From sequence record PZ445526.1: a stretch of DNA of 64,000 nucleotides. One strand, 5' to 3'. Shown here piece by piece: positions 13,312 through 26,024 of the stretch. The DNA comes from a phage. The notes under the pieces are model-generated. The model had not been told where the DNA came from, made no database searches, and was given only the letters and a program-made list of their open reading frames with translations. Position 1 is the first letter of the stretch; every line of letters starts with the position of its first letter. The position numbers were made by a program, and so were the translations under genes.

Positions 13312-13683
13312 TCACTTAAATTTAATGGCTTGAAGAAGACTAATAACTCTCAAGCGACTTCTTTCATCTTTAACTGTAAAGGAAAGAGGGTCACCAGATT
13401 TCATAGTGATAGTGCATCCAAAATCAAAATTTTCGGGAACTTCTTCGAAGAAGTCAAATTCTTCAGCATAAATTAGAACATTACTCTGCATACTGTGAAG
13501 AATTTTTCCATTATTTCCAGACGCTGTACTAATCATCGTAACATTATGACCTTTCATATCTTCAACGATAAATTCGCTTGAAGATATTACAGCATTAATA
13601 GAACCATTCCTATAAATAGCAGACATTAGATATTTCTTTTCTTCGCCTTCGCGAATACGATATTTCTTACCGATTTTAAACAT
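13312..13683 (-). CDS. hypothetical protein (123 aa)
   Basis: ORF track trimmed from GTG to ATG at 13683. Confidence 0.55.
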   Translation of the reverse strand: MFKIGKKYRIREGEEKKYLMSAIYRNGSINAVISSSEFIVEDMKGHNVTMISTASGNNGKILHSMQSNVLIYAEEFDFFEEVPENFDFGCTITMKSGDPLSFTVKDERSRLRVISLLQAIKFK

Positions 13684-23540: not shown

Positions 23541-23786
23541 TTATTCACCAGTTACTTTCCACAAATCTTCATTTGCAGTAATCCATTCAGTACGTTGATT
23601 TTCTTCATATACTGTAGAATATGCTGCTTTTTCTGAAGGGAATGTCTGGTAATGAGCACCAGAAATTTTGTGAACGTCAGAATAAAGAGGGAAAGCTACG
23701 GAAATTTCCTTTCCTTCAATTTTCTTATTTCCATCTAATTTCTGCTCAAATGTTTTGATATTAACATAACCGCGAGTACTAGCCAT
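23541..23786 (-). CDS. soc: small outer capsid protein Soc
   Basis: 81 aa, MASTRGYVNIKTFEQKLDGNKKIEGKEISVAFPLYSD... matches remembered T4 Soc; TATAAATA late promoter upstream, strong terminator downstream. Confidence 0.9.
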   Translation of the reverse strand: MASTRGYVNIKTFEQKLDGNKKIEGKEISVAFPLYSDVHKISGAHYQTFPSEKAAYSTVYEENQRTEWITANEDLWKVTGE

Positions 23787-23802: not shown

Positions 23803-24012
23803 TTAAATTACATGATTATTTATAATAAATTCTCGCGGAACGTTAAAATACCCAATTTTAGTTAATATAACAACATCGCCGTTAATAATTACCGGAGAAT
23901 AATCGGCTGGAGCATTAAATTTCCAATGGGCTCTAATATTATATCCATCAGAACCAAATGCTCGACTAGCCGGTCTCCCGGCTTTTTGCCATGCATAAAA
24001 ATCAAATTTCAT
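23803..24012 (-). CDS. hypothetical protein (69 aa)
   Basis: ORF track. Confidence 0.45.
   Translation of the reverse strand: MKFDFYAWQKAGRPASRAFGSDGYNIRAHWKFNAPADYSPVIINGDVVILTKIGYFNVPREFIINNHVI
23817..23824 (-). promoter_or_regulatory. late promoter for soc
   Basis: exact TATAAATA on minus strand about 30 nt upstream of soc ATG. Confidence 0.5.
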
Positions 24013-24209
24013 TTTGAATGCTCTATAATTAATTTTAAAGCTTCTTCACGCACCAACTTGCCTGGTATATGCCCAGTTTTAATTGTGTAAACTTTGTGGA
24101 GCTGATTAGATAAGAGCTCACATACGAGCTCCTTGTCATAATCTTTAAATAGCTGGTCAATACGCTTCTTGTGGGCTTTCTTGAGCTGGCGTTTATTTAA
24201 ACGAGCCAT
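24009..24209 (-). CDS. hypothetical basic protein (66 aa)
   Basis: ORF track; Lys/Arg-rich N-terminus. Confidence 0.45.
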   Translation of the reverse strand: MARLNKRQLKKAHKKRIDQLFKDYDKELVCELLSNQLHKVYTIKTGHIPGKLVREEALKLIIEHSK

Positions 24210-24727
24210 TAATAGCCTCGATCTTGACGAGCGAAGTTTTCAGCATTTTTCAGATAATAAAGTTTAAAGATTTCCTCAGCTGACATTCCAAGAGCAATGA
24301 ATTTATTCATGAAAAAGTGAAATTGATCAATCAGTTCAAATTTAATTTCAAGTTGATCTTCAGGAGATAAATCTTGAATTTTCTTGGATTGCATTTCAGA
24401 ATAACGTTTTTTCCAAGGTTTCCATACAGCAGAAGCTTCTTTTTCACCATTACTCATACCACCAAGAGAAGTATATAGCTCGCGAGTTTCATCTGCGATA
24501 TAATCGTCTTGGTTTCGCAGCCAAGCAAGAACTTCTCCTGCAGTTTCAAGTGAATCAGGATGACGATTTGTTTCTGGTTTATCATTAGCCAAACGAATCT
24601 GTAAATGCCGCTGCATGTCAAGCATAACCTGTAGTGGGTCAATATTGTGCATAATATTCTCAGCATATGCACGATTTGCTTTATCAACACCTTCGATCAA
24701 ATGAGCACATTCATTAAAGTGAGCCAT
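24209..24727 (-). CDS. 56: dCTP pyrophosphatase gp56 (MazG-like)
   Basis: 172 aa from internal ATG (MAHFNECAHLIEG...) with SD AAAGGAAAAA; size and position match T4 gp56; track start extended 31 codons. Confidence 0.8.
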   Translation of the reverse strand: MAHFNECAHLIEGVDKANRAYAENIMHNIDPLQVMLDMQRHLQIRLANDKPETNRHPDSLETAGEVLAWLRNQDDYIADETRELYTSLGGMSNGEKEASAVWKPWKKRYSEMQSKKIQDLSPEDQLEIKFELIDQFHFFMNKFIALGMSAEEIFKLYYLKNAENFARQDRGY

Positions 24728-24798
24728 TATTTTTCCTTTCAATTCATGGGTTAGTAGATTAATTATACAATAAATATATAAAGCAATAAGGAGGACAT

Positions 24799-24999
24799 AT
24801 GGTACAAAAATTAATGGCACTTGTTAATGCCATCAAAGGTAATAAAAAGCGTATAGCTTTTACTATTTCTGCTATGGTAGGAATTTTACTCTGGAACTTT
24901 ATTTTATCACCTGTTGCAATTGCACATGGTATTAATATTCCAGTAGTTACTCTTGATACATTCGTAGATTTAGCATTTGCTTTAGTTGGGTTAATTTAA
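24799..24999 (+). CDS. 66-aa predicted membrane protein on the plus strand
   Basis: Strong SD TAAGGAGG 4 nt before ATG; two hydrophobic segments; convergent with and overlapping the primase stop. Confidence 0.5.
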   Translation: MVQKLMALVNAIKGNKKRIAFTISAMVGILLWNFILSPVAIAHGINIPVVTLDTFVDLAFALVGLI

Positions 25000-26024
25000 A
25001 TCTTAGCATATTTAGATAGCCGCATTTTAGCCATCAACCCCTGGGCAATATTATTTTTCATATATTCCATAATTTGTTCAGGGGTTGCACCTTCCTTTTT
25101 AATCATATCATTAACATCTTTTGATTTCCAGGGAGATTTATCCCAAAACATAACCCTTTCTCCTGCATCAACTAATTTAGTCATTCGCTTAATAGTGTCA
25201 GGATGACGAGGTTCATTATCTAAAACCCACACACGTCTATCTTTAAATGGAACAACTTCTAGGTCTAATTGACCACCCGTAATAGCTATACCATTTTCAA
25301 TAAAAAGTGAATCTATAGGTCCTTCTAGAACATATACATCACCATCTTTAACTCGTTCGACTCCATAGATTTTTGTTGCCTCAGGATAAGCTTTGATGGT
25401 TATATATTTTTGAGGAGCATCTTTCTTTAATGCACGTCCTTGAAAAGACTCAGCTTTTCCATTAGCATTATAAATTGGAATAACAAGACGAGGCTCAGGT
25501 ATTTCCTTTTTATATGTTCCGGGTGCTATACTATTAACTAATTTAGGCCATTCGGTTGTAAACCAAAGATATTTCCATTTATCCTTTGGAATACAACGAG
25601 CTTTTACATATTTTATAATTGGATGGTCTTCCGCCAGTTTATCTAATCTAACACATGACGGAAGAGATTTAATTATTTTCTTCTCAGGTTGTTTAGGAAG
25701 TTCTTTAGGTTTTTCTACTGGACGACTTTTACCTTTTTCTTTTCTTATTTCAAAGATATACTCACGATATAAATCAGGTTCAAACTCCTTTAAATATATT
25801 CCGATTGGTGCATGATAGTTACAGTTATAACAATGAATATTTCCTTCATTATTATCACCATAATACCATCCACGAGCTTTATTCTGGTCGGTTTTTGAAT
25901 CTCCACAAACAGGGCATCTAAACCGCAATTTAAAAGTTGAACTATTATTTACTTGTGTGAATTTAGGTAAATGAGCTAATGCACGGTATGCAAACTCATT
26001 ATCAATCCAAGGTATTGATGACAT
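24996..26024 (-). CDS. 61: DNA primase gp61
   Basis: 342 aa; N-terminal zinc ribbon (CPVCGDS ... CYNC); size matches T4 gp61. Confidence 0.9.
   Translation of the reverse strand: MSSIPWIDNEFAYRALAHLPKFTQVNNSSTFKLRFRCPVCGDSKTDQNKARGWYYGDNNEGNIHCYNCNYHAPIGIYLKEFEPDLYREYIFEIRKEKGKSRPVEKPKELPKQPEKKIIKSLPSCVRLDKLAEDHPIIKYVKARCIPKDKWKYLWFTTEWPKLVNSIAPGTYKKEIPEPRLVIPIYNANGKAESFQGRALKKDAPQKYITIKAYPEATKIYGVERVKDGDVYVLEGPIDSLFIENGIAITGGQLDLEVVPFKDRRVWVLDNEPRHPDTIKRMTKLVDAGERVMFWDKSPWKSKDVNDMIKKEGATPEQIMEYMKNNIAQGLMAKMRLSKYAKI

What the first reader, a model, noticed from the sequence alone, without database searches (positions are those of the whole stretch)
24728..24999. Lone plus-strand ORF with a strong ribosome-binding site between genes 56 and 61
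Inside roughly 60 kb of minus-strand genes, a 66-aa plus-strand ORF (24799..24999) has a near-consensus SD (TAAGGAGG, 4 nt, ATG) and encodes two hydrophobic helices. Its stop overlaps the primase stop, so the two are convergent. From memory the T4 map has the dam methyltransferase gene between 56 and 61; here that interval is only about 270 bp, so dam is not at this position. Convergent transcription into the primase 3' end could also act as an antisense or terminator element.
Basis: partly seen in the sequence, partly recalled or inferred. Interest (0 to 1): 0.55.

Follow-up and report, generated by a model that had tools for sequence, protein, structure and literature searches.

The report
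Conserved T4 late small membrane gene
The lone plus-strand ORF between the dCTPase and primase genes is a real, conserved T4-family gene for a 66-residue membrane protein, probably expressed late in infection; other phage records already annotate it (dam.1, RB69ORF029w), and its function is still unknown.

Summary
A 66-codon plus-strand ORF lies at 24799..24999. It follows TAAGGAGG plus a 4-nt spacer, and its stop overlaps the stop of primase gene 61.

It is not peculiar to this phage. T4 carries the same ORF (2 aa different), unannotated in RefSeq but named dam.1 in T4T and RB32ORF030w/RB69ORF029w in RB14. tblastn finds it in 697 phage records. In every locus examined it is the lone plus-strand gene, convergent on primase or, in one lineage, on an ORF inserted after it.

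It is coding: dN/dS is about 0.15-0.25, and the frame stays open where synonymous sites are saturated. A late-promoter-like NATAAATA octamer sits 15-33 nt upstream in every T4-like lineage examined. Here it is AATAAATA, the commonest T4 variant.

The product has a basic N-terminus, one clear membrane helix with a conserved W-N-F motif, and a short hydrophobic C-terminal helix.

The minus strand of the same 268 bp carries a predicted gene-61 terminator hairpin and a predicted MotA-type middle promoter for gene 56.

dam is absent here, as in about 65% of Tequatrovirus records. No holin or other family membership is supported. The gene is an ordinary known hypothetical; only its function is open.

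The parts
24769..24776 (+). Predicted gp55-type late promoter octamer AATAAATA (A at -13 variant). The transcription start is inferred near 24782.
   Evidence: locates it. WATAAATA is depleted in the window (7 found against 24.8 +/- 5.1 expected), and one of the other six copies is TATAAATA 30 nt upstream of soc. An ATAAATA heptamer lies 15-33 nt upstream of the ATG in all nine T4-like upstream contexts examined. The T4-type copy is annotated 'promoter' in MT682714. PMC2988020 reports that 9 of 50 T4 late promoters have A at -13.
24787..24794 (+). Shine-Dalgarno sequence TAAGGAGG, 4 nt before the ATG.
   Evidence: A GGAGG, AGGAG or GGAG core precedes the ATG in every orthologue examined.
24799..24999 (+). 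CDS for a 66-aa small membrane protein, the orthologue of T4T dam.1 / RB32ORF030w / RB69ORF029w and a member of phrog_2024.
   Evidence: Searches identify it. dN/dS is about 0.15-0.25. Synteny holds in distant relatives.
24801..24836 (-). Intrinsic-terminator-like hairpin (stem-loop 24836..24811, T-run 24810..24806), about 160 nt downstream of the gene 61 stop and embedded in codons 1-13 of the plus-strand ORF.
   Evidence: One search finds it by pattern scan. The equivalent site is annotated 'terminator' in fPS-90. RNAfold shows the hairpin in Tequatrovirus only, not in the F2-type, Gaprivervirus or Kanagawavirus loci.
24762..24788 (-). Predicted MotA-dependent middle promoter for gene 56: MotA box TATTGCTTTA at 24788..24779, an 11-nt spacer, and -10 TATAAT at 24767..24762. 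It overlaps the plus-strand late octamer and 2 nt of the SD.
   Evidence: The sequence is. A 'predicted middle promoter' is annotated at the same place in fPS-90. The same architecture is annotated upstream of gene 56 in T2 AF374619.
24209..24727 (-). Gene 56 (dCTPase/dUTPase), the left flank of the interval.
   Evidence: compared with T4 gp56.
24996..26024 (-). Gene 61 (DNA primase), convergent with the ORF and overlapping it by 4 nt (TTAA).
   Evidence: 342 aa, near-identical to T4 gp61.

Best explanation
The ORF is the local copy of a gene found across the enterobacterial T4-like phages searched (subfamily Tevenvirinae). It is called dam.1 in T4T and RB69ORF029w in RB69.

Inferred expression: early in infection the region would be read on the minus strand, as the 3' untranslated tail of the primase message. 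That tail ends at a hairpin terminator lying inside the ORF's first 13 codons. The MotA-type middle promoter of gene 56 follows immediately. After replication starts, gp55-RNA polymerase would initiate on the plus strand at AATAAATA (24769-24776). This gives a short-leader mRNA whose strong SD drives translation of a 66-residue protein.

Inferred topology: the five basic residues at the N-terminus stay in the cytoplasm. Residues about 19-42 span the inner membrane. The hydrophobic, acidic C-terminal segment (HG-x3-P-x3-L-D/E, then a 12-residue helix) lies at or in the periplasmic face.

Inferred mode of action, with low confidence in the specific role: the near-invariant W-N-(F/Y) and Pro inside the membrane helix suggest that it works by helix-helix association, with itself or with another membrane protein. 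The most plausible setting is an envelope event late in infection, such as lysis timing or lysis inhibition, or membrane integrity.

Shown: the gene is real, under purifying selection, syntenic and membrane-type. Inferred from sequence only: late timing, topology, terminator and promoter activity. Guess: the cellular role.
For: Coding:
- Pairwise dN/dS is about 0.1-0.25 among 13 distinct Tequatrovirus alleles. Variable sites by codon position are 10/2/15.
- The frame stays open, with 33-55% aa identity to the window protein, in the F2-type, Gaprivervirus and Kanagawavirus copies, where pS is 0.6-0.87.

Distribution and synteny:
- 697 phage records match by tblastn.
- Searches with two distant relatives reach Klebsiella T4-like phages, Salmonella STP4-a, RB69, JS10 and T2.
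- A profile search of 1.84 billion representatives finds only 14 clusters, all 45-70 aa.
- In the T4-like contigs the gene is always the lone plus-strand gene, with a 4-nt tail-to-tail overlap on the primase gene or on the ORF that follows it. In Q7622 the overlap is 24 nt.

Late promoter:
- The ATAAATA heptamer is kept 15-33 nt upstream of the ATG in nine upstream contexts whose flanks show no obvious similarity.
- It sits on different sides of the opposite-strand MotA box in different clades, so the middle promoter does not explain it.
- The octamer is 3.5-fold depleted in the window, and one of the other copies precedes soc.
- The A(-13) variant is common in T4 (PMC2988020) and in relatives (PMC1524935).
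- Other annotators marked the T4-type copy as a promoter.

Membrane protein: AF2 model with pLDDT 85.7, hydropathy and charge of +5 at the N-terminus against -2 at the C-terminus, and published TMHMM for RB69ORF029w.
Against: - No transcript, ribosome-footprint, proteomic or mutant evidence was found. Literature searches for dam.1, RB69ORF029w and T4 small-ORF studies returned nothing relevant.
- The one T4 dRNA-seq transcription-start table located was not held.
- T4 itself and several lineages have G or C, not T or A, at -13, and the strength of such variants in vivo is unknown.
- No homology to any protein of known function was found, so the role is conjecture.
- The reference T4 annotators did not call this ORF.
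- Two distant family members sit in non-T4 phage-like contexts (one beside bacterial genes, one beside a recombinase) without this promoter. Late T4-type expression is therefore not a property of the whole family.
Confidence: 0.8

Rival explanations
1. The ORF is a chance reading frame. On this view the interval is conserved only as the primase 3' UTR, terminator and gene-56 promoter on the minus strand.
For: The terminator hairpin and the middle promoter do overlap the 5' end of the ORF and its upstream signals. Antisense ORFs of at least 100 aa occur by chance in this window. RefSeq T4 does not annotate the ORF.
Against: dN/dS is about 0.2, with changes concentrated at third positions. The frame, the SD and the protein motifs persist in genera where the hairpin is absent and the DNA is saturated with substitutions. 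Distant relatives at 20-31% identity keep the same position and length.
Confidence: 0.03
2. It is a holin, pinholin or antiholin-like lysis protein that forms holes in the inner membrane late in infection or modulates them.
For: It is small, has at least one TM segment and carries a late-type promoter. UniRef and BFVD label one orthologue 'Holin'. Two relatives give weak hits to the same part of Pfam GTA_holin_3TM (E about 0.1). One distant relative lies about 1.5 kb from a phage lysozyme gene.
Against: Only 2 of 24 members hit PF11351, at 13.9 bits against a cut-off of 24.8, no better than their noise hits to Syndecan, Ldr or Mlo. It lacks the charged hydrophilic C-terminal tail typical of holins, ending in ...ALVGLI. 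From established knowledge, T4 already has the holin T, the antiholin RI and RIII. The gene is not next to lysis genes in any T4-like genome examined. The 'Holin' label is a database name with no evidence attached.
Confidence: 0.12
3. The main role is RNA-level. Late plus-strand transcription from the octamer would run antisense through gene 61 and help shut off primase and upstream early genes, with the peptide being secondary.
For: The ORF ends inside the primase stop codon. The pattern scan finds no plus-strand terminator-like site before about 29188 (weak) or 33235. From PMC2988020, T4 is known to transcribe both strands at some sites at different times.
Against: Purifying selection acts on the amino-acid sequence. 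An RNA-only role would not need the conserved SD or protein motifs. Rho-dependent termination cannot be assessed with these tools. No expression data exist.
Confidence: 0.1
4. It is a membrane-level superinfection-exclusion or immunity factor, working like T4 Imm or prophage Sie proteins.
For: It is a small bitopic membrane protein. Two distant family members lie in non-T4 phage-like contigs, one next to bacterial genes and one near a recombinase, where accessory genes such as exclusion genes often sit. The spackle gene lies nearby.
Against: From established knowledge, T4 exclusion genes (imm, sp) are expressed early. This gene sits on the late-transcribed strand, with a late-type octamer and no sigma-70-like plus-strand promoter within 24000..25600 apart from one downstream of the ORF. 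It has no PADLOC, Pfam or NCBIfam match.
Confidence: 0.08

Closest known systems
T4T dam.1 (ADJ39749) / RB32ORF030w (RB14 ACP30675) / RB69ORF029w; PHROG family phrog_2024 (unknown function)
   Same: Orthologue. It is 98.5% identical to the T4T copy by tblastn and identical in protein sequence to the RB14 copy. It matches phrog_2024 over its full length (E 1.4e-31). It has the same strand, the same 4-nt overlap with the primase stop and the same upstream octamer and SD.
   Different: Nothing of substance. In T4 and T4T, dam lies between this gene and gene 56, and the octamer is GATAAATA. Here gene 56 and its middle promoter abut the gene directly, and the octamer is AATAAATA.
soc, a late gene of the same window inside the mainly early-transcribed region
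   Same: A short gene preceded by a late-type octamer about 20-30 nt before the ATG. soc has TATAAATA at 23824-23817, with its ATG at 23786.
   Different: soc is on the minus strand like its neighbours and encodes a capsid decoration protein. This gene is on the opposite strand and encodes a membrane protein.
Small phage holins and pinholins (class II type, e.g. phage 21 S68) and Pfam GTA_holin_3TM (PF11351)
   Same: Similar size (57-70 aa), hydrophobic helices, predicted late expression, and a sub-threshold profile hit for two relatives.
   Different: It has no charged C-terminal tail, no significant profile match and no lysis-cassette context. T4 has its own unrelated holin T. Membership is not supported.
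T4 Imm and other small T4 inner-membrane proteins
   Same: A short, phage-encoded, helical inner-membrane protein with no enzymatic domain. It probably acts through membrane protein contacts (inference).
   Different: No sequence similarity was detected. Imm is an early gene on the minus strand, whereas this gene has late-type signals.

Membership tests
dam.1 / RB69ORF029w family (phrog_2024) | Full-length sequence match to the family profile | tested here: met
   phrog_2024 E 1.4e-31, residues 2-66 against profile positions 1-65 of 65. By tblastn it is 98.5% identical to the T4T copy, and the RB14 protein is identical.
dam.1 / RB69ORF029w family (phrog_2024) | Syntenic position: lone plus-strand gene, tail-to-tail with the primase gene and upstream of gene 56 | tested here: met
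dam.1 / RB69ORF029w family (phrog_2024) | Conserved motif: basic N-terminus, then a TM with W-N-(F/Y)...P, then ...G...P...(D/E) | tested here: met
   Alignment A3: P38 is invariant, and W32, N33, G44 and P48 are at least 90% conserved.
T4 late genes (gp55/gp33/gp45-dependent) | TATAAATA-type octamer at -13 to -6, with single deviations (notably A at -13) tolerated | tested here: met
   AATAAATA at 24769-24776, 22 nt before the ATG. The heptamer is conserved in all nine T4-like upstream contexts examined. The variant is documented in PMC2988020.
T4 late genes (gp55/gp33/gp45-dependent) | Replication-coupled, gp55-dependent transcription in vivo | not testable with these tools
   No expression data could be retrieved. 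The TSS table of bioRxiv 10.1101/2024.04.04.588121 is not held.
Holins | At least one transmembrane domain in a small protein | tested here: met
Holins | Highly charged, hydrophilic C-terminal tail | tested here: not met
   The C-terminus is ...LDTFVDLAFALVGLI, with a KD mean of 1.86-1.99 and no basic residues.
Holins | Significant match to a curated holin family | tested here: not met
   The window protein has no Pfam or NCBIfam hit. Only 2 of 24 relatives hit PF11351, at E about 0.1 and below the cut-off.
Holins | Genomic linkage to endolysin or spanin genes | tested here: not met
   The neighbours are replication and nucleotide-metabolism genes in all T4-like loci examined.
Holins | Timed lethal permeabilisation of the inner membrane | not testable with these tools
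   Needs expression experiments.
Dam methyltransferase at the 56-61 locus (as in T4) | A Dam-homologous ORF between gene 56 and gene 61 | tested here: not met
   The interval is 268 bp. tblastn with T4 Dam finds nothing in the window. 328 of 508 related records share this dam-less state.
Rho-independent terminator (minus strand, after gene 61) | GC-containing hairpin followed by a T-run | tested here: met
   11-bp stem at 24836..24811 followed by TTTTT, stable in RNAfold, and annotated as a terminator in fPS-90. Activity was not tested.
MotA-dependent middle promoter (for gene 56) | MotA box (a/t)(a/t)(a/t)TGCTT(t/c)A, about 12 +/- 1 nt upstream of a TAnnnT -10 element (consensus from established knowledge) | tested here: met
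   TATTGCTTTA, 11 nt, then TATAAT on the minus strand at 24788..24762. The same site is annotated in fPS-90 and in T2. Activity was not tested.

The most novel reading that the evidence does not exclude
dam.1 would be a so-far overlooked, widely conserved late membrane component of T-even phages. It is missing from the reference T4 annotation. Through its conserved W-N-F membrane helix it would bind a phage or host inner-membrane protein and tune an envelope event late in infection, for example holin triggering or lysis inhibition, or it would protect the infected cell's membrane. Its packing against the primase gene could add antisense control of primase mRNA.
Probability: 0.2. Interest if true: 0.55.

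Novelty: already known. Interest (0 to 1): 0.25.

Why it matters
For the scan, this is a correct gene call on something already present in hundreds of GenBank records as a hypothetical protein.

Its residual value is modest but real:
- The reference T4 record (NC_000866) lacks this gene.
- It is conserved across the enterobacterial T4-like phages searched, under purifying selection.
- It has late-type expression signals and no known function.
- The 268-bp interval shows how tightly T-even phages superimpose signals on both strands: a coding sequence, a terminator for the opposite strand, a middle promoter and a late promoter.
- It also marks a recurrent insertion/deletion site for dam and homing-endonuclease cassettes.

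Tried and rejected
- Pfam, NCBIfam and PADLOC scans of the protein and of divergent relatives gave no significant hit.
- The weak GTA_holin_3TM hits (2 of 24 members, E about 0.1) were judged to be noise.
- A profile search of PDB sequences gave only chance TM matches to the acetylcholine receptor M4 helix.
- Foldseek against viral models returned only family members, and the 'Holin' name there is an unsupported label. The afdb50 library was unavailable.
- Literature searches for dam.1, RB69ORF029w/RB32ORF030w, T4 Ribo-seq or unannotated ORFs, and late promoter plus membrane protein found nothing on this gene.
- Miller et al. 2003 (PMC150520) is not held. The T4 dRNA-seq TSS table is not held.
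- Whole-interval RNA folding on either strand is not unusually stable (z -1.4 and -1.2). Apart from the terminator hairpin, there is no sign of a structured RNA element.
- The other plus-strand WATAAATA copies (13611, 22517) have no SD or ATG after them.
- The idea that dam moved elsewhere was rejected for the related records, because each dam-less record has only one matching place. It cannot be excluded for the unseen part of this genome.

Full report
**What is at the coordinates**

The window is a Tequatrovirus (T4-like) genome segment. It is 96.8% identical over 24 kb to RB18, and 99.6% identical over the 551 bp around the finding to phage teqhad.

The plus-strand ORF runs from ATG 24799 to TAA 24997-24999, giving 66 codons. 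TAAGGAGG (24787-24794) and the spacer ACAT precede it. The primase gene (24996..26024, minus strand, 342 aa, near-identical to T4 gp61) ends at 24996-24998, so both stop codons lie in one TTAA. Gene 56 (dCTPase) starts at 24727 on the minus strand. The interval is therefore 268 bp and cannot hold dam.

**It is not special to this phage**

T4 has the same ORF, with 2 amino-acid differences, at NC_000866 17738..17938 (+). It lies in the 309-bp gap between dam and gene 61. RefSeq does not annotate it.
- The T4T record names it dam.1.
- RB14 calls it RB32ORF030w, 'similar to RB69ORF029w'.

tblastn finds it in 697 phage records. Identity is at least 90% in Tequatrovirus, about 50-55% in the F2-type and Gaprivervirus copies, and 38% in a Kanagawavirus. 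Searches with two distant relatives extend the family to Klebsiella T4-like phages, Salmonella STP4-a, RB69, JS10 and T2.

A profile search of 1.84 billion representative proteins finds only 14 clusters, all 45-70 aa.
- Four distant relatives sit on T4-like contigs in the same place: the lone plus-strand gene, overlapping by 4 nt the end of the primase gene or, in L021, of a 124-aa ORF inserted after it.
- Two more distant members lie in non-T4 phage-like contexts.
- All of the relatives scanned match phrog_2024, which has no known function.

**It is a coding gene**

Among 13 distinct Tequatrovirus alleles, pairwise dN/dS is mostly 0.1-0.25. Variable sites fall 10/2/15 on codon positions 1/2/3. 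Between genera pS is 0.6-0.87 (saturated) while pN is 0.32-0.49, and the frame stays open. One allele (OE5505) has a clean 3-codon deletion. A strong SD precedes the ATG in every lineage examined. The chance-ORF explanation is therefore rejected.

**Expression signals**

Every T4-like lineage examined has an ATAAATA heptamer 15-33 nt upstream of the ATG, while the flanks show no obvious similarity:

| Lineage | Octamer |
|---|---|
| Window, RB14, F2 | AATAAATA |
| T4, Lutter, L021 | GATAAATA |
| Gaprivervirus, L024, L027, L028 | CATAAATA |
| Kanagawavirus | TATAAATA |

The T4 late promoter is TATAAATA at -13 to -6. Of the 50 listed T4 sites, 32 are perfect and 9 have A at -13 (PMC2988020). In related phages T/A at -13 is poorly conserved (PMC1524935).

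The octamer WATAAATA is 3.5-fold depleted in this window: 7 copies against 24.8 +/- 5.1 in shuffles. One of the other copies is TATAAATA 30 nt upstream of soc. A copy at the right distance from an SD and ATG is thus unlikely to be accidental.

The heptamer lies downstream of the opposite-strand MotA box here, but upstream of or overlapping it in the F2-type and Gaprivervirus loci. The middle promoter therefore does not explain its conservation. The annotators of phage Lutter marked the T4-type octamer as a promoter. I conclude, from sequence only, that this is a late gene, on the strand opposite to the surrounding minus-strand genes.

**The other strand of the same 268 bp**

About 160 nt after the primase stop, the minus strand forms an 11-bp hairpin (24836..24811) followed by TTTTT. 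The equivalent site is annotated as a terminator in fPS-90. It lies inside codons 5-13 of the plus-strand gene. It is present in Tequatrovirus but not in the other genera. It is therefore a clade-specific overlay, not the reason the ORF exists.

Directly after it comes TATTGCTTTA, then 11 nt, then TATAAT (24788..24762). This fits the MotA-dependent middle-promoter pattern for gene 56. The same site is annotated as a predicted middle promoter in fPS-90 and in T2.

No plus-strand terminator-like site follows the ORF for more than 4 kb. Late antisense transcription into gene 61 is therefore possible but untested.

**The protein**

AlphaFold2 with an 18-sequence alignment (pLDDT 85.7) gives three helices, at 2-12, 16-42 and 52-63. 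Net charge is +5 before residue 19 and -2 after residue 42. Both 19-42 and 47-66 pass the Kyte-Doolittle threshold. TMHMM, as published for RB69ORF029w, calls one TM at 21-41.

Family-wide conserved residues are W32, N33, P38, G44, P48 and an acidic residue at position 52. The likely picture is:
- an N-terminus on the cytoplasmic side;
- one membrane-spanning helix with a polar Asn in mid-membrane, a feature known to drive helix association (established knowledge);
- a short hydrophobic, acidic C-terminal helix at the outer face, or a marginal second span.

**Function**

Nothing links the family to a characterised protein:
- Pfam, NCBIfam and PADLOC gave no significant hit.
- A profile search of PDB sequences gave only chance hits.
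- Foldseek against viral models gave only family members.

The 'Holin' label on one UniProt entry is unsupported. Only 2 of 24 members give sub-threshold hits to GTA_holin_3TM, the charged C-terminal tail is absent, and the gene is never next to lysis genes. My best guess is a late-acting inner-membrane accessory protein that works through helix-helix contacts in an envelope or lysis-related process. That guess is inference, with low confidence.

**dam**

No Dam homologue is in the window. Of 508 related records matching the T4 56-dam-61 segment, 180 contain dam at this locus. The other 328 match only the flanks and have a single matching place. The dam-less state is therefore the majority and a known polymorphism.

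The same site carries other cassettes elsewhere: dam plus a 186-aa ORF in OE5505 and Lutter, and a homing endonuclease in fPS-90. Whether this phage has dam outside the 64-kb window cannot be determined.

**Verdict**

The finding is real but ordinary. It is an already annotated, conserved hypothetical gene, with predicted late expression and a membrane product, overlaid on standard T4 regulatory signals. Novelty: already known. Interest is low to moderate. What remains open is its unknown function and its absence from the reference T4 annotation.

Noticed in passing
whole window: GATC is strongly under-represented: 71 sites against 233 +/- 14 in dinucleotide-preserving shuffles. The window encodes no Dam methyltransferase.
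   Followed up: partly
whole window; copies at 2515(-), 7537(-), 13611(+), 22517(+), 23817(-), 24769(+), 50947(-): The late-promoter octamer WATAAATA is depleted about 3.5-fold: 7 copies against 24.8 +/- 5.1 expected. The copy at 23824-23817 (-) precedes soc. The plus-strand copies at 13611 and 22517 lie inside minus-strand genes, with no SD or ATG after them.
   Followed up: partly
L001 3239-3439 (T4 NC_000866 17738..17938, + strand): The RefSeq T4 record leaves this conserved 66-codon gene unannotated, although T4T (dam.1), RB14 and hundreds of other records annotate it.
   Followed up: yes
window 24728-24798 and the equivalent sites in L001, L003, L017, L030 and L021: The junction between gene 56 and the small gene is a recurrent insertion/deletion site. 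It is empty here and in RB14. It holds dam in T4, dam plus a 186-aa ORF in OE5505 and Lutter, and a homing endonuclease in fPS-90. In metagenomic L021 a 124-aa ORF sits between primase and the small gene.
   Followed up: partly
window 24009-24209 (-), just downstream of gene 56: A 66-aa minus-strand ORF occupies the place where T4 has the homing endonuclease segF. RB14 has a 201-nt hypothetical ORF (RB14ncORF029c) at the corresponding position, but the two were not compared. This is another cassette difference from T4.
   Followed up: no
L025 4001-4213 and L026 4001-4210: Distant phrog_2024 members (P0087, P0088) occur outside T4-like phages. One is in a phage-like gene cluster that borders bacterial genes, about 1.5 kb from a phage lysozyme gene. 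The other lies between tail genes and a serine recombinase. Neither has the late octamer.
   Followed up: partly
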